From the IMG/VR virus record IMGVR_UViG_3300047496_000382: a stretch of DNA of 64,000 bases; one strand, 5' to 3'. Source of the stretch: a virus. Below the pieces are notes generated by a model. That model was not told the DNA's origin. It searched no databases and saw nothing but the letters and a program-made list of their open reading frames with translations. Below are positions 17,744 through 46,786 of this stretch, in pieces. A program made the position numbers and the translations under genes. Positions within the stretch are counted from its first letter, which is position 1, and every line of letters begins with the position of its first letter.

Positions 17744-17753
17744 GGAATAAGAG
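17744..17753 (+). promoter_or_regulatory. Putative phage promoter motif GGAATAAGAG
   Basis: One of four GGNATAAG copies; 44 nt before the first gene of a plus-strand unit. Confidence 0.55.
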
Positions 17754-17787
17754 CACTGGAGGATGACACGGCACGGAAGGAGCGAAA

Positions 17788-17916
17788 ATGGGGCCCGAAA
17801 GCAAGGACGCTGGCGCGCTGTTTCAGCGACGCATCGAGCAGATGTTCGAACTCGAGGAGCAACAAGATGACGAAGATGAACCAGAAGAAGACCTCGATGA
17901 AGGGAATACAACGTGA
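17788..17916 (+). CDS. Small, very acidic protein (42 aa)
   Basis: Below the ORF-track cutoff. MGPESKDAGALFQRRIEQMFELEEQQDDEDEPEEDLDEGNTT with RBS GGAAGGAG. Confidence 0.55.
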   Translation: MGPESKDAGALFQRRIEQMFELEEQQDDEDEPEEDLDEGNTT

Positions 17917-18006
17917 AGGTGCTGTTTCTTCTGTTCTTTGGCGCCGGTCTGTTCAACGGTGCGATGCTCTGGATTCGCGAACATCTACGCAGGGAAAGTG
18001 AGCGCT

Positions 18007-18600
18007 ATGCTCGTCAATCCGTACAGGGACCGGCTAGCGACCCTGCCCGGCACGCGCATCCTTGAGTCAACTTTCGACATCATCGGCGCGAAGTTGCTCG
18101 ACCCCCACAACCAGAGCCGCCTCTGGGAAGTGCAGTGCTTGTATGCCCCCCTTCCCGGCCGCGCGCTAGGTGGTTTTCGCGCGCGGCTCACAGACCAACT
18201 CGGATTCATCACCTTCTGCAACCAACGCGACCTCGAGGTGCTCATCGACAACGCCTGCCCTGGTGACTACTGCGGCTGGAACGACACTTACTACGTCGGG
18301 CCGACACACCGCGACTGGTATGGCCTCTGCTGTGACGAGGATGACCTACGCGACGACCTGTTCGAGTACGAGCTCCTGCTGCGCGCACAGTTCGCCGGCG
18401 GCGCGTTGATACCAGCCTTCCAGGGGCAGCTCGACTACGTGCGTCTGCTGCATCTCGGCAACAACAACGACGTCGAGGAGGAGCGTCTCTTCATAATGGA
18501 CTACGACCCAGACACGGGCGCTTTCCCCGACACGACCTTCGAGAACGTCGAGCGTCGATGGATGCGCAACGGCACTTCGAAAGTTCGATGGCATACATAG
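18007..18600 (+). CDS. Hypothetical acidic protein
   Basis: Start moved to MLVNPY (GTG at 17998 also possible); Asp/Glu-rich and globular. Confidence 0.6.
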   Translation: MLVNPYRDRLATLPGTRILESTFDIIGAKLLDPHNQSRLWEVQCLYAPLPGRALGGFRARLTDQLGFITFCNQRDLEVLIDNACPGDYCGWNDTYYVGPTHRDWYGLCCDEDDLRDDLFEYELLLRAQFAGGALIPAFQGQLDYVRLLHLGNNNDVEEERLFIMDYDPDTGAFPDTTFENVERRWMRNGTSKVRWHT

Positions 18601-19208
18601 CCGCGTCCGCTGGCCTACTAGAGAAGACGGGCTGGACATGCACAAGCTGCGACGAGCACATCGAGTACGTCGAAGAAGTCTTCCAGTTGCAGGTTGTGGA
18701 GATGCGCCTCATCGAAGGACACCTCCGCTACTTGCCCATCATGGCGACGAACGGGGACTACCTGTTCGACCCGCAATTCATCTGCTTTCGCTGCTGGGAA
18801 GACGCCTACGAAGACCTGAAGGAGCACGTCGATGACATGCCGTCCCTGGACGACATGGGAAGCATGTTCGCCTGCTCAACTTGCGGTAGCGGCATTCGCG
18901 AAGGGGAGTACACCATCATCGCGACGCTCGGAGAGATGCATCGCTCTCGCCGCGCACCACAAGGACACCACGACCCGACGTTCGTGCCTTCAGGAGCGCC
19001 GACAGTCCTCTGCCTCTACTGCGCGAAGTGTGTCGATGAGCAGTCCATCGATATGTGGATAGGACTGGGACACAACAACGACTGCCTCGAGTGCGCGCAC
19101 GTTCGCTGCTGGCGCAACGACGTGACGTGCGAGTGCCACTGCCACACAGACGACCCCTACGAAGAAGAAGACGTCGAAGACGACACTGAGGAGGACACCG
19201 ATGGCTGA
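18588..19208 (+). CDS. Cys-rich multi-zinc-finger protein
   Basis: CTSC, CFRC, CSTC, CLYC, CLEC and CECHCH motifs with an acidic tail. Confidence 0.65.
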   Translation: MAYIAASAGLLEKTGWTCTSCDEHIEYVEEVFQLQVVEMRLIEGHLRYLPIMATNGDYLFDPQFICFRCWEDAYEDLKEHVDDMPSLDDMGSMFACSTCGSGIREGEYTIIATLGEMHRSRRAPQGHHDPTFVPSGAPTVLCLYCAKCVDEQSIDMWIGLGHNNDCLECAHVRCWRNDVTCECHCHTDDPYEEEDVEDDTEEDTDG

Positions 19209-45080: not shown

Positions 45081-45281
45081 TCAGTGCGTGTCGATGGCGT
45101 GCTGGAGAGCGTCAAGTCCGTCTCCGAGCACCACCTTCCCTGCATGGTCGAGCTTCTGGAGATGCGGAGAGAGCACGATGACCGCGAGCTTCAGTCCCGC
45201 GCGCACTCCCTCCGCGTACTTCTCCTTGAGCACGTCCGCGGCCGTCGATGCCAGGTCCTTCTTCATCTCTTCTTCGGGCAT
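45081..45281 (-). CDS. Hypothetical protein (66 aa)
   Basis: RBS GGAG and followed by a terminator. Confidence 0.55.
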   Translation of the reverse strand: MPEEEMKKDLASTAADVLKEKYAEGVRAGLKLAVIVLSPHLQKLDHAGKVVLGDGLDALQHAIDTH

Positions 45282-45832
45282 GGACTCTCCTTGGTCATAC
45301 GGTCCATCCAGTCCGCGATGTGTCGATGCTCTTCTGCCGTACCGGAGTTCTTGAGCGTGTTCGCGCGCAGCGAGATGACGGCCACATTGCCGGGCACGTA
45401 CCCGCGCTCTGGAACGAGGCGGTCAAGAGAGGGACTGTTATCGTGCCGCTTCCGGGTCCCCTTCGCAAGACGGATTCCCAGTACAGGGCAGTGCGTTGGA
45501 ACCACGAGGTCTTCGAACACTAGAGTAAACGCAAGTCCTTTTCGTACGGCCCTGCGGCGTGCGGCCGTAAACGAGTACTTCAGTGCATTTTTCGCGTAGT
45601 AGGCTGCAGACCGTGCCTTCTCCGTCGAAGCGTTTTGTCGGTAGTATCGACGTTTACGGGCCTTTGCCTGCGCAGGCTTGTCCGCCTCATAGCGCTTCTG
45701 TTTCGCGCGTACCGCCTCTGGATGGGTAGCTGCGTAGTGCTTGTCATACGCACGCCGACAGGCACGGCACCAGTTCTTTCCCGGTGCCGTGCCTGTCGGC
45801 GTTCCTGCCGGCGCTTCTGACAGGTACGACAC
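45263..45832 (-). CDS. HNH-type homing endonuclease
   Basis: CRAC N-terminal helix; CPVLG...SPSLDRLVPERGYVPGNVAVISLRANTLKN. Confidence 0.85.
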   Translation of the reverse strand: MSYLSEAPAGTPTGTAPGKNWCRACRRAYDKHYAATHPEAVRAKQKRYEADKPAQAKARKRRYYRQNASTEKARSAAYYAKNALKYSFTAARRRAVRKGLAFTLVFEDLVVPTHCPVLGIRLAKGTRKRHDNSPSLDRLVPERGYVPGNVAVISLRANTLKNSGTAEEHRHIADWMDRMTKESPCPKKR

Positions 45833-45839
45833 ACGAACA

Positions 45840-46745
45840 TTAGTCGGTCACACCCATCCAGGGCTGCGGGAACAAATTAGGCCAGTTCTCCACAGCCACG
45901 CGCCGCAACGTACGCGCGAAGCGTTGAATCTCCAAATCGGCCGCGTTGTCCGCGCGTTCCTGAACCATTTTTGCGATGGCCATGGGATTTGTGGTCCACA
46001 CAAAACTAGTCTCGGCCTGGTGCGGGAGGAAGCTCGAGGCCGCTTCGTAGATGCGCTTCTTGTCGAGGCTCGTCGGCTTCTTACCGTGCTTCTCTTCGAA
46101 CGCCAGGACCTCCTGGTTCACCGCCATGCAGTAGGCGTCGTAGGAGGTCTGCATGGCGCGCTCGAAGTGGTCTTGCATCCACTGCGCGTCCGGTGTCGCC
46201 TCGTCCAAGTACCGCGGCGGCATGATGAAGAAGCCGTAGTGGTGTGTGAAGCGCGTCGACTCCTGCGACGGACTGCCCTCCTCGTCGCGGTCGGCACCGA
46301 CGTAGTTGCGGATGATTTCGTGGCTCACTCGGCGCGAGATGCCCCCGAAGAAGAACGACATCTTCGCGTGGTAGAGGATGCTCGAGTGCTTCACCGGGCC
46401 GGACTGTGTGTGCTGGATGTACTCCTTGTTGCCCTTCTTGCCGGCCTTGAGCCCGAAGCTGTCGTAGCACTTGCGGCCCGCGAGCTCGACGAGGAGCTCA
46501 TTCGCCGTGAGCCCGCGCGAGAGCGTCGCACCGCCCTCCTGCTGCGGAGGCACCTCCTCTTCCAGGTCGTGCGGGAAGAGTGCCTTCCAGTTCGAGGCGT
46601 CGTCGGGAAGGCACTCCGGACGGTGGTCTCCCACCCAGCCCATCATCTGCTCGATGCCAAGCGGCATCAGCGACATCTGCGCGATGGGGACAACGGTGGG
46701 GGCGGCGGTGAGGATGGTGACTTTCTTTACGAGCTCTTCGGACAT
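45840..46745 (-). CDS. thyX: Flavin-dependent thymidylate synthase (divergent motif)
   Basis: LVELAGRKCY, HSSILYH, ISRRVSHEIIR...SQESTRF, LPHQAET and ADLEIQRFA. Confidence 0.82.
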   Translation of the reverse strand: MSEELVKKVTILTAAPTVVPIAQMSLMPLGIEQMMGWVGDHRPECLPDDASNWKALFPHDLEEEVPPQQEGGATLSRGLTANELLVELAGRKCYDSFGLKAGKKGNKEYIQHTQSGPVKHSSILYHAKMSFFFGGISRRVSHEIIRNYVGADRDEEGSPSQESTRFTHHYGFFIMPPRYLDEATPDAQWMQDHFERAMQTSYDAYCMAVNQEVLAFEEKHGKKPTSLDKKRIYEAASSFLPHQAETSFVWTTNPMAIAKMVQERADNAADLEIQRFARTLRRVAVENWPNLFPQPWMGVTD

Positions 46746-46776
46746 GGAACCTCCTGGCGTGTTGTTCGCGCCGAAG

Positions 46777-46786
46777 CCCTTATCCC
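46777..46786 (-). promoter_or_regulatory. Putative phage promoter motif GGGATAAGGG
   Basis: 41 nt before the thyX ATG, in a short intergenic gap. Confidence 0.55.

What the first reader, a model, noticed from the sequence alone, without database searches (positions are those of the whole stretch)
17744..46786. GGNATAAG motif at near-constant spacing before each non-virion transcription unit
Seen: GGAATAAGAG (17744, +), GGCATAAGAG (28277, +), GGGATAAGAC (33280, +) and GGGATAAGGG (46786, -), lying 44, 44, 46 and 41 nt before the start codons of the acidic/AAA-VWA unit, the helicase/UDG unit, dnaB and thyX. An AT-rich core like this stands out in a GC-rich genome. One further copy (GGCATAAGGA, 35458) is inside dnaG. 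It does not match the sigma70 consensus and only partly resembles the sigma28 -10 element. Inference: the promoter of the phage RNAP.
Basis: partly seen in the sequence, partly recalled or inferred. Interest (0 to 1): 0.75.

Follow-up and report, generated by a model that had tools for sequence, protein, structure and literature searches.

The report
Phage sigma-type promoter, GCAA-N16-GGnATAAG
The GGNATAAG word is the -10 half of a two-box promoter in front of this large uncultured phage's replication and other non-virion genes, most likely read by the phage's own sigma factor together with its own single-chain bacterial-type RNA polymerase.

Summary
The four intergenic ones are 44, 44, 46 and 41 nt before start codons.

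The 8-mer is only half of the signal. The full consensus is (G/A)CAA-N16-GGnATAAG-Ar-N3-TG, with a free spacer and an invariant G where a start site is expected. CAA-N16-GGNATAA occurs 13 times in the 177-kb genome, against 0.05 expected. A matrix scan finds 23 sites. Of these, 21 are intergenic, all 21 point at a downstream gene, and none lies before the head/packaging block.

The signal is kept at the same places in relatives with about 50% protein identity. Its core, ATAAG-N5-TR, recurs strand-specifically in cultured Salmonella phage Arash and Vibrio phage D69.

The box registers equal those of sigma28 promoters. The phage encodes one sigma factor (262 aa, regions 2-4, nearest family FliA/WhiG). 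It also encodes a 2148-aa fused beta-beta' polymerase that keeps both sigma docking elements.

Promoter: near certain. Read by the phage sigma: likely. Core enzyme phage rather than host: probable, not shown.

This scan had already reached the same reading on at least six other genomes. The paper describing Arash has no promoter analysis, and my limited literature searches found no description of this promoter.

The parts
17724..17758 (+). Promoter P1. GCAA 17724-17727, 16-nt spacer, GGAATAAG 17744-17751, predicted start G at 17758. It heads the 42-aa acidic ORF (17788) and the MoxR-type AAA+ / VWA-metallopeptidase unit.
   Evidence: 31.3 bits; orthologous sites in G001, G002 and about 14 related contigs; Pfam AAA_5 and DUF2201.
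28257..28291 (+). Promoter P2. GCAA 28257-28260, GGCATAAG 28277-28284, predicted start G at 28291 (C at -1). It heads the 205-aa ORF and the ResIII/DEAD helicase unit.
   Evidence: 27.7 bits; a promoter is also found upstream of the orthologous genes in G001 and G002; Pfam.
33260..33294 (+). Promoter P3. GCAA 33260-33263, GGGATAAG 33280-33287, predicted start G at 33294. It heads dnaB, dnaG, a 383-aa ORF, the family A DNA polymerase, the RecA-like gene and onward to the terminator at 44665-44688.
   Evidence: 21.5 bits; G002 has a site 33 nt before its dnaB, and G001 has a variant with a 17-nt spacer; Pfam; terminator.
46772..46806 (-). Promoter P4. GCAA 46806..46803, GGGATAAG 46786..46779, predicted start G at 46772. 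It heads thyX (46745..45840).
   Evidence: 19.6 bits; G001 keeps GGTATAAG 41 nt before its thyX, with a weaker -35 (TGAA); Pfam Thy1.
35438..35472 (+). dnaG-internal look-alike: GCAT-N16-GGCATAAG, with CG at -1/+1. It is probably a by-product of the G-I-R codons of the Toprim motif. A weak internal promoter is not excluded.
   Evidence: 17.0 bits, -35 score 1.1; inside the gene. The same in-frame word occurs in G002 dnaG (G002 102694). The reading frame was worked out.
11223..17669 (-). Single-chain beta-beta' RNA polymerase (2148 aa from the TTG at 17669). It is the probable core enzyme for these promoters.
   Evidence: Pfam Rpb2_6 1e-62, Rpb1_2 and Rpb1_5. The beta' clamp-helix region and the beta flap-tip region both align to solved bacterial enzymes. 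25 relatives found in viral contigs.
17698..17727 (-). Candidate second-class promoter of the polymerase gene: TTGCAT (17727..17722), 18 nt, TACCCT (17703..17698). Its TTGC is the reverse complement of the GCAA of P1, so the two promoters stand back to back.
   Evidence: TTGCAn-N18-TAC(G/C)CT is conserved in L005, L007, L011, L013, L016, L020, L022 and L027. Its function is inferred only.
28231..28260 (-). The same back-to-back arrangement at the second divergent junction: TTGCGC (28260..28255), 18 nt, TACTGT (28236..28231), before the 489-aa gene 28211..26742.
   Evidence: G002 94341 has CTTGCA-N18-TACGCT before a 480-aa gene that sits at the equivalent divergent junction, back to back with G002's counterpart of P2 (orthology inferred from position, not aligned). 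Inferred only.

Best explanation
GGNATAAG is the extended -10 element of a sigma70-family-type bipartite promoter.

Anatomy. Numbering from the invariant G as +1, the promoter reads: (G/A)CAA at -34..-31, a 16-bp spacer of free sequence, G-14 G-13 n-12 A-11 T-10 A-9 A-8 G-7, then A-6 r-5, three free bases, and T-1 G+1.

Proposed mechanism. The phage-encoded sigma factor (262 aa; genome 156060-156848, outside the window) does the reading. Region 4.2 reads GCAA, region 3.0 reads the GG, and region 2 captures A-11 and probably G-7. Transcription starts at the G about 7 nt downstream. This gives 10-16-nt or 27-32-nt leaders that carry the ribosome-binding site.

Core enzyme. The core that this sigma loads is most probably the phage's own single-chain beta-beta' polymerase. 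No alpha subunit is detectable. By analogy with phage Arash, the holoenzyme may arrive inside the virion.

Regulon. The promoters drive replication and nucleotide-metabolism genes and arrays of small genes. They do not drive the head/packaging block.

Shown versus inferred.
- Shown: the motif's anatomy, its statistics and its conservation; the sigma's domain make-up; the polymerase's sigma docking regions.
- Inferred: the start site, which sigma regions read which boxes, which core is used, and the timing.
For: Motif in this genome
- Bipartite with fixed spacing: 13 copies of CAA-N16-GGNATAA against 0.05 expected.
- Among 36 sites from three genomes, chosen only by [ACGT]CAA-N16-GG.ATAA, unselected positions are conserved: A 32/36, purine 34/36, then pyrimidine 35/36 and G 36/36 at the expected -1/+1.
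- The matrix scan finds 23, 24 and 34 sites in G000, G001 and G002, against 0.3 in null genomes.
- In G000, 21 of 23 sites are intergenic and all 21 are co-oriented with a downstream gene. In the window's intergenic DNA no site scores between 8 and 13 bits, so the real sites stand clear of the background.

Conservation in relatives
- The signal is kept where the surrounding intergenic DNA looks unrelated by eye (not formally aligned). It is present upstream of the polymerase in about 14 contigs with 48-64% polymerase identity, each with TG at the same offset.
- It also precedes the orthologous acidic/AAA, helicase, dnaB and thyX units of G001 and the first three of these in G002, where no thyX ortholog was detected.
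- Arash: GGNATAAG occurs 36 times on the minus strand against 7 on the plus strand. T is at +13 in 27/31 sites and a purine at +14 in 31/31.
- D69: TATAAG-N5-TR occurs 39 times on one strand against 6 on the other.

Sigma factor
- Pfam Sigma70_r3, 8e-10. The best NCBIfam family is FliA/WhiG.
- A family profile aligns SigA from region 2 through region 4.2, at 1e-18.
- A model with pLDDT 88 matches SigD, SigB, SigA, WhiG and FliA.
- 51 homologs exist, many on contigs of 120-190 kb.
- It is the only sigma found in the genome.

Register
- In the solved sigma28 open complex the boxes are (-36)TCTAAAG(-30) and (-15)GCCGATAA(-8) (PMC12784957). GCAA therefore overlays TAAA, and ATAA overlays ATAA.

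Core enzyme
- The clamp-helix and flap-tip regions are retained. No alpha subunit is found.
- Arash virions contain beta, beta' and sigma by mass spectrometry (PMC10585845).
- Sites matching the sigma70 consensus are not enriched.
Against: - There is no transcript data, so the start site and the promoter activity are predictions.
- Nothing here separates 'phage sigma on the phage core' from 'phage sigma on the host core'. The docking regions are present but divergent; the clamp helices have lost several basic residues.
- The sigma scores far below the FliA/WhiG cut-off (41 against 190 bits), so assigning particular sigma regions to particular boxes rests on analogy.
- The sigma gene itself lies downstream of one of these promoters (158932). 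This needs either virion delivery or another way to start the circuit.
- The polymerase gene carries a different, more housekeeping-like candidate promoter. That would fit early expression by the host enzyme rather than delivery in the virion.
- G001, G004 and G005 show no sigma gene. For G001 this is explained by a contig break that removes the orthologous 16 kb. For the other two, only incompleteness (80% and 63%) can be offered.
- The matrix was trained on the same genomes it scanned. The regex counts and the unselected positions are free of this circularity.
Confidence: 0.7

Rival explanations
1. The promoters are real and read by the phage sigma, but the sigma redirects the host core polymerase, as SPO1 gp28 or T4 gp55 do. 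The fused phage polymerase would then use other, unrecognised signals, for example for late genes.
For: The sigma is a standard regions 2-4 protein whose region 2.2 resembles that of bacterial sigmas. Jumbo phages that encode sigma factors but no polymerase are thought to use them on the host core (PMC7824862). The head/packaging genes and the polymerase gene lack this promoter, so some other recognition system must exist.
Against: A bacterial-type core needs a specificity factor, and only one sigma-like gene is detectable. Sigma and polymerase travel together across hosts as different as Salmonella, Vibrio and a 62% GC lineage. In Arash both proteins are in the virion. The phage core keeps the clamp helices and the flap tip.
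Confidence: 0.2
2. The motif is read by a host holoenzyme. Either the host housekeeping sigma uses an extended -10-like box, or the host's flagellar-type sigma28 reads it. The phage sigma would then serve other genes.
For: In Arash the box reads tGGTATAAG, which is 7 of 8 specified positions of TGnTATAAT. The register equals that of sigma28 promoters.
Against: Position -7 is G, where the housekeeping sigma needs T. The counts are G 26, A 5, C 3 and T 2 among 36 sites, and this position was not used to select them. Position -12 is mostly C or G in this lineage, and the -35 box is GCAA rather than TTGACA or TAAA. Sites matching the sigma70 consensus are not enriched. The same core signal occurs in phages of unrelated hosts and tracks the phage sigma.
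Confidence: 0.06
3. It is not a promoter. It would instead be an operator for a phage DNA-binding regulator, or an element that works in the RNA (leader or processing signal).
For: No transcripts were seen. The boxes are short.
Against: The following all point to a sigma-type promoter:
- two boxes at a fixed 16-bp spacing with a free spacer;
- an AT-rich box with an invariant A;
- a pyrimidine-purine step at the expected start;
- strict co-orientation with downstream genes;
- placement just after terminators.
An RNA element would not need the upstream box, which would lie outside the transcript.
Confidence: 0.04

Closest known systems
Sigma28 (FliA/WhiG, group 3) promoters: TAAA-N15-GCCGATAA
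   Same: The architecture and register are identical. The -35 tetramer lies at -34..-31 and ATAA at -11..-8. An extended -10 dinucleotide lies just upstream. The spacer has free sequence (PMC12784957). The phage sigma's best family match is FliA/WhiG.
   Different: The specificity bases differ: GCAA rather than TAAA, GG rather than CC at -14/-13, and a free -12 rather than G. G at -7 is conserved here, whereas sigma28 does not read -7. The sigma is far below the family cut-off. The genes controlled are phage replication and early genes. The probable core is viral.
Extended -10 promoters of housekeeping sigma70/SigA (TGnTATAAT)
   Same: G at -14, A-11, T-10, A-9 and A-8 are shared, and the start lies about 7 nt after the box. 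In Arash the box is tGGTATAAG. The sigma profile aligns best to SigA chains in the PDB.
   Different: G replaces the near-universal T at -7. There is no TTGACA. In this GC-rich lineage there is no T at -15 or -12. Sigma70-type sites are not enriched.
Salmonella phage Arash (OQ632216; PMC10585845) and Vibrio phages D69/D148/D181
   Same: They are homologous: sigma about 31-32% identical, polymerase about 30%. They carry the same core signal, strand-specific and placed before non-structural genes. In Arash, as here, the sigma gene lies beside large structural genes.
   Different: In Arash, beta and beta' are separate genes, whereas here they are one chain. Arash has a weak -35 box (tCCAAAA). D69 lacks the GG. 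The Arash paper reports beta, beta' and sigma in virions but contains no promoter analysis.
Non-virion multisubunit polymerases of phiKZ/AR9-type jumbo phages, with sigma-like subunits (gp68, gp226)
   Same: A phage-encoded relative of the bacterial polymerase uses a phage-encoded specificity subunit and phage-specific promoters (PMC9209446, abstract seen; PMC7824862).
   Different: In those phages the enzymes are split into four or five very divergent pieces, and no recognisable sigma gene is found in that phage group. AR9 reads a template-strand element (abstract). Here the enzyme is one chain that Pfam recognises easily, the sigma is a true regions 2-4 protein, and the promoter is classically bipartite.
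Phage sigma factors that reprogram the host core (SPO1 gp28, gp33/34; T4 gp55)
   Same: A phage-encoded sigma defines a phage-specific promoter class for a temporal gene set (established knowledge, from memory).
   Different: Those phages have no polymerase of their own. T4 late promoters have no -35 box.

Membership tests
Sigma70-family bipartite promoter (general kind) | Two conserved boxes separated by a spacer of fixed length but free sequence | tested here: met
   GCAA and GGnATAAG lie 16 bp apart (rarely 15 or 17). Spacer columns carry under 0.25 bits each. 13 copies against 0.05 expected.
Sigma70-family bipartite promoter (general kind) | An AT-rich -10 box with an invariant A (-11), about 7 nt upstream of a purine start that follows a pyrimidine | tested here: inconclusive
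   The sequence fits: pyrimidine 35/36 and G 36/36 at the expected -1/+1, neither used to select the sites. The same holds in Arash and in 8 of 8 polymerase-upstream sites of relatives. The ATAA itself (including A-11) was part of the selection pattern, so its invariance among these sites is not independent evidence. The true start site was not measured.
Sigma70-family bipartite promoter (general kind) | Lies in intergenic DNA, co-oriented with the gene downstream | tested here: met
   21 of 23 matrix hits are intergenic and all 21 are co-oriented. 13 of 15 GGNATAAG copies lie in the 12% of the genome that is intergenic, P=8e-11.
Sigma70-family bipartite promoter (general kind) | A matching sigma with DNA-reading regions 2, 3 and 4 is available | tested here: met
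   Phage sigma: Sigma70_r3 8e-10; profile alignment to SigA regions 2-4.2 at 1e-18; fold matches to sigma factors.
Sigma70-family bipartite promoter (general kind) | Initiation at the site depends on that sigma | not testable with these tools
   This needs start-site mapping or in vitro transcription.
Sigma28 / FliA promoter class | -35 TAAA and -10 GCCGATAA | tested here: not met
   The boxes are GCAA and GGnATAAG. Only AA and ATAA are shared, though in the same register.
Sigma28 / FliA promoter class | The reading sigma belongs to the FliA/WhiG family | tested here: not met
   TIGR02479 is the best hit but scores 41.3 bits against a cut-off of 189.6.
Housekeeping sigma70 consensus promoter | TTGACA-like -35 box and T at -7 of TATAAT | tested here: not met
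   The -35 box is GCAA. Position -7 is G 26, A 5, C 3 and T 2. The consensus scan finds 1 and 2 sites against 1.5 and 1.9 expected.
Single-subunit (T7-type) phage polymerase promoter | One continuous conserved block of about 20 bp from -17 to +6, plus a T7-like polymerase gene | tested here: not met
   The conserved DNA is split by a free 16-bp spacer. The polymerase is of the beta-beta' type.
GGYATAAG promoter class of Arash-like phages (named only within this scan) | An ATAAG box with G at -7, T-1/R+1 five bases later, strand-specific before non-structural genes, in a genome that encodes the homologous sigma and bacterial-type polymerase | tested here: met
   for the signal; for the genes.

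The most novel reading that the evidence does not exclude
These phages carry a complete transcription machine independent of the host: one beta-beta' chain plus one sigma factor, without alpha. It may be delivered in the virion. It reads its own promoter code, whose hallmark is a G at -7 where cellular sigmas have T. The code would be old enough to be shared by phages of Salmonella, Vibrio and an unknown GC-rich host. If true, it would be a minimal two-protein bacterial-type holoenzyme with a promoter orthogonal to host promoters.
Probability: 0.5. Interest if true: 0.8.

Novelty: new variant of a known kind. Interest (0 to 1): 0.62.

Why it matters
- Annotation. It gives a usable promoter code, GCAA-N16-GGnATAAGAr-N3-TG, for a widespread and mostly uncultured lineage of 150-200-kb phages. 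Transcription units and temporal classes can then be annotated from sequence alone.
- Testability. The signal is linked to a specific phage sigma and a one-chain bacterial-type polymerase. The pairing can be tested at the bench now, because cultured phages Arash and D69 share the core signal.
- Mechanism. A sigma that demands G rather than T at -7, within a sigma28-like register, is a natural experiment in how -10 recognition can be re-specified.
- Application. A two-protein holoenzyme with a private promoter would be attractive as an orthogonal expression system.
- Caveat. This scan has already reached the same reading on several other genomes, so this window adds a well-resolved member rather than a first sighting.

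Tried and rejected
- Nucleotide search of 7.9 kb of the window against the phage collection: no match.
- Polymerase protein against 185,579 bacterial and archaeal genomes: no relative, so neither a host nor a prophage was identified. A second scan with the sigma alignment could not be run because no stretch was conserved enough.
- Literature search for the motif as a string: only primers and unrelated hits. Weinheimer and Aylward 2020 deals with the phiKZ-like clade and mentions neither a sigma factor nor a promoter.
- GGNATAAG and GGTATAA in Vibrio phage D69: not enriched. I first read this as absence of the signal. Searching for the core without GG (TATAAG-N5-TR) then showed strong strand-specific enrichment.
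- A second sigma: the weak region 4 hit at genome 5588-6667 is a dNMP kinase with a helix-turn-helix domain. The other hit is antisense to a gene.
- A late promoter class: k-mer enrichment in 223 upstream regions lacking the motif returned only three things, namely the reverse complement of the same motif, terminator tails and ribosome-binding sites. TAC(G/C)CT alone is not enriched in intergenic DNA. Only the polymerase-upstream copy is clearly conserved.
- Co-variation between sigma region 3.0 and the presence or absence of GG, comparing G000 and Arash with D69: the alignment differs there but cannot be interpreted.
- The capsid-targeting tag A-F-x-D-E-L on the polymerase or sigma: absent. 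It is present on ten other proteins.
- Alpha subunit: none detected.

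
Full report
**1. Observation**

The window is bases 32000-95999 of a 177,425-bp IMG/VR virus record with 62.5% GC, estimated 95% complete. The 10-mers and the distances to the start codons (44, 44, 46 and 41 nt) are correct.

Taken alone, the 8-mer is only mildly over-represented in the window: 5 found against 1.68 expected, and 2 of 100 shuffles reach 5. Genome-wide there are 15 copies against 1.7 expected. Thirteen of them lie in the 12% of the genome that my gene calls leave intergenic (P=8e-11).

**2. The motif is half of a larger signal**

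Aligning the four intergenic copies shows GCAA exactly 16 nt upstream of each GG. CAA-N16-GGNATAA occurs 13 times in the genome. The expectation is 0.05, with a maximum of 1 in 100 third-order Markov genomes and 0 in the reversed sequence.

I fetched two related genomes in full:
- G001: 170 kb, polymerase 64% identical.
- G002: 191 kb, complete with terminal repeats, polymerase about 52% identical.

I collected all 36 sites in the three genomes that match [ACGT]CAA-N16-GG.ATAA. Positions that played no part in this selection are strongly conserved:
- the base after ATAA is G in 26 of 36;
- the next is A in 32 of 36;
- the next is a purine in 34 of 36;
- three free bases follow;
- then a pyrimidine in 35 of 36 (T in 29);
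- then G in 36 of 36.

Taking the invariant G as +1, the signal reads: (G/A)CAA at -34..-31, N16, G-14 G-13 n-12 A-11 T-10 A-9 A-8 G-7 A-6 r-5, N3, T-1 G+1. The spacer columns carry almost no information.

A matrix built on these sites finds 23, 24 and 34 sites (at or above 14 bits) in G000, G001 and G002. Null genomes give 0.3. The matrix was trained on these same genomes, so the regex counts and the unselected positions are the independent evidence.

In G000, 21 of the 23 sites are intergenic and all 21 point at a downstream gene. The predicted leaders fall into two groups:
- 27-32 nt for the four window promoters and one more site at genome 106338;
- 10-16 nt for most right-arm promoters, where the transcript would begin at the ribosome-binding site itself.

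A variant box, GGCACAAGAA, is also used. No intergenic site in the window scores between 8 and 13 bits, so the four promoters are clearly set apart from the background.

**3. Conservation**

The polymerase protein finds 25 viral contigs with 39-64% identity. In about 14 of them, the divergent gap just upstream of the polymerase gene carries GCAAGAA-N13-GGnATAA(G/C)aa on the opposite strand. In every case TG sits at the same offset, while the surrounding DNA looks unrelated by eye; I did not align it formally.

Sites of this class also precede the orthologous acidic/AAA unit, helicase unit, dnaB and thyX in G001, and the first three of these in G002, where no thyX ortholog was detected.

Two cultured phages are distant relatives: sigma about 31-32% identical, polymerase about 30%.
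- In Salmonella phage Arash, GGNATAAG occurs 36 times on the minus strand and 7 on the plus strand; the control pattern gives 7 and 8. Its 31 GGTATAAG sites have T at +13 (27 of 31) and a purine at +14 (31 of 31). This is the same geometry, with a weak tCCAAAA box where GCAA would lie. The sites precede minus-strand non-structural genes.
- In Vibrio phage D69 the GG is absent. However, TATAAG-N5-TR occurs 39 times on one strand against 6 on the other, where the control gives 13 and 3.

The deep core is therefore ATAAG with G at -7, then five bases, then T-1 R+1. The GG and the GCAA box are stronger or weaker in different lineages.

**4. What reads it**

The window encodes a fused beta-beta' polymerase at 11223-17669 on the minus strand. 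It is 2148 aa long, starting from a TTG preceded by GGAG. Pfam finds Rpb2_6 at 1e-62, Rpb1_2 and Rpb1_5.

Outside the window, at genome 156060-156848, lies the only sigma gene I could find. The evidence for it:
- Sigma70_r3 at 8e-10, above the cut-off, with weak region 2 and region 4 hits.
- The best NCBIfam family is FliA/WhiG, but far below its cut-off.
- A profile of 30 homologs aligns SigA from region 2 through region 4.2 at 1e-18.
- An AlphaFold model (pLDDT 88) matches SigD, SigB, SigA, WhiG and FliA.

The family has 51 members of 250-283 aa, many on contigs of 120-190 kb. G002 and G003 have the gene. G001 lacks it only because its contig break removes the stretch orthologous to G000 147.8-164 kb.

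The register of the boxes matches sigma28 promoters. In the solved Pseudomonas open complex the elements are (-36)TCTAAAG(-30) and (-15)GCCGATAA(-8). There the GC acts as an extended -10 element and A-11 is flipped out (PMC12784957). Thus GCAA overlays TAAA and ATAA overlays ATAA, while the specificity bases differ. By analogy, region 4.2 would read GCAA, region 3.0 the GG, and region 2 the A-11. The conserved G at -7 suggests that this position is also read, unlike in sigma28. This assignment is inference.

**5. Which core enzyme**

The fused protein keeps the beta' clamp-helix region; it aligns to mycobacterial beta' 253-586 through the LNDLYRR...NRLK coiled coil. It also keeps the beta flap-tip region; GLSAIRRSMSGAH aligns to PEERLLRSIFGEKA of Thermus. 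These are the docking sites for sigma regions 2 and 4. No alpha subunit is detectable.

In Arash, beta, beta' and sigma are all abundant in purified virions (PMC10585845). There, as here, the sigma gene lies next to large structural genes. A bacterial-type core needs a specificity factor, and this genome offers one. Sigma and polymerase co-occur in phages of very different hosts. A comparative survey reported that jumbo phages encoding a polymerase had no sigma gene, while sigma genes were seen in groups lacking a polymerase (PMC7824862), so this pairing is unusual.

I put about 0.6 on the phage core and about 0.2 on the sigma hijacking the host core. Nothing computed here separates the two.

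**6. Wiring**

In the window the promoters head four units:
- P1: a 42-aa acidic ORF and the MoxR-type AAA+ / VWA-metallopeptidase pair.
- P2: a 205-aa ORF and a ResIII/DEAD helicase.
- P3: dnaB, dnaG, the family A DNA polymerase, a RecA-like gene and RusA, ending at a strong terminator at 44665-44688.
- P4: thyX.

Elsewhere the promoters head small-gene arrays, a NADAR protein, a papain-like protease and a collagen-repeat protein. One also heads the operon that contains the sigma gene (genome 158932). In Arash too, a site sits just before gp9-gp10, where gp10 is the sigma.

No promoter of this class precedes the block that holds the terminase (3331-5145) and the polymerase. Sites matching the sigma70 consensus are not enriched.

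The polymerase gene has a different conserved candidate promoter, TTGCAn-N18-TAC(G/C)CT. Its TTGC is the reverse complement of the GCAA of P1. The same back-to-back layout recurs at 28231-28260. This looks more like a housekeeping TTGnnn/TAnnnT promoter. If so, the host enzyme could make the polymerase, which competes with the idea of virion delivery. I could not resolve this.

**7. Verdict**

- That the signal is a promoter is as well supported as sequence alone allows.
- That the phage sigma reads it is likely.
- That the phage polymerase is the core is probable.

It is not a member of the sigma28 or sigma70 consensus classes, because defining bases were tested and not met. It works like them.

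The Arash paper has no promoter analysis, and my limited literature searches, including one for the motif as a string, turned up no description of this promoter. This scan had already described the same class on at least six other genomes. My results were reached independently up to that look-up and agree with them.

Noticed in passing
window 17698-17727 (-) and 28231-28260 (-); L005, L007, L011, L013, L016, L020, L022, L027 just upstream of the polymerase start: A second conserved motif lies on the polymerase strand: TTGCAn-N18-TAC(G/C)CT, 13-35 nt before the polymerase start codon. Its -35 overlaps the GCAA of the divergent promoter as a reverse complement. It is a candidate housekeeping-type or late promoter.
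   Followed up: partly
genome 155473-155845 (-) = L066:19473-19845, outside the window: The phage encodes a tmRNA (Rfam RF00023, 94.4 bits, E 1.6e-35; ARAGORN tag peptide ANDNEVAQRLAA). It lies directly downstream of the sigma gene and the 63-aa Pol I fragment gene.
   Followed up: partly
window 45049-45076 (-), 44665-44688 (+); genome 3705-3777, 100523-100718, 133004-133077 and others: Intrinsic terminators recur as a GC-rich hairpin followed by TTTTTCTAG(C). Several promoters of the GGnATAAG class start within about 10 nt after the CTAG.
   Followed up: no
window 33157-33259 (+): A very stable structure (-51.5 kcal/mol, z=-5.35; long hairpin about 33193-33253) lies between the stop codon at 33146 and P3. 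It is not followed by a U-tract. It could be a terminator variant, a 3'-end protector or a processing site.
   Followed up: partly
window 35438-35472 (+), inside dnaG: The fifth motif copy lies on in-frame codons G-I-R of the Toprim motif, with GCAT from C-M codons upstream. G002 dnaG has the same arrangement, so protein constraint can explain it.
   Followed up: partly
window 24357-25967, 46794-47201, 47198-48664, 53954-54433 (all -) and six genes at genome 150981-163260: Ten otherwise unrelated proteins carry an A-F-x-D-E-L-x-K-I-A-like peptide, mostly near the N terminus. The polymerase and the sigma do not carry it.
   Followed up: partly
window 19201-21929 (+): A MoxR-type AAA+ ATPase is followed by a protein with a metallopeptidase domain and a VWA domain. 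This is the same pair that a comparative study of jumbo phages proposed as a virion-assembly chaperone (PMC7824862). Here it is driven by P1.
   Followed up: no
genome 133450-133562 (-) = L065 about 17450-17562: The strong promoter at 133562 is followed within about 45 nt by GGTTCGAATCC, a tRNA T-arm-like word, and then a hairpin. ARAGORN and Rfam call nothing there.
   Followed up: partly
window 30706-33146 (+): Pfam finds no uracil-DNA glycosylase in the ORFs tested downstream of the helicase. The stretch 31201-32062 has no confident gene call in my frame analysis.
   Followed up: no
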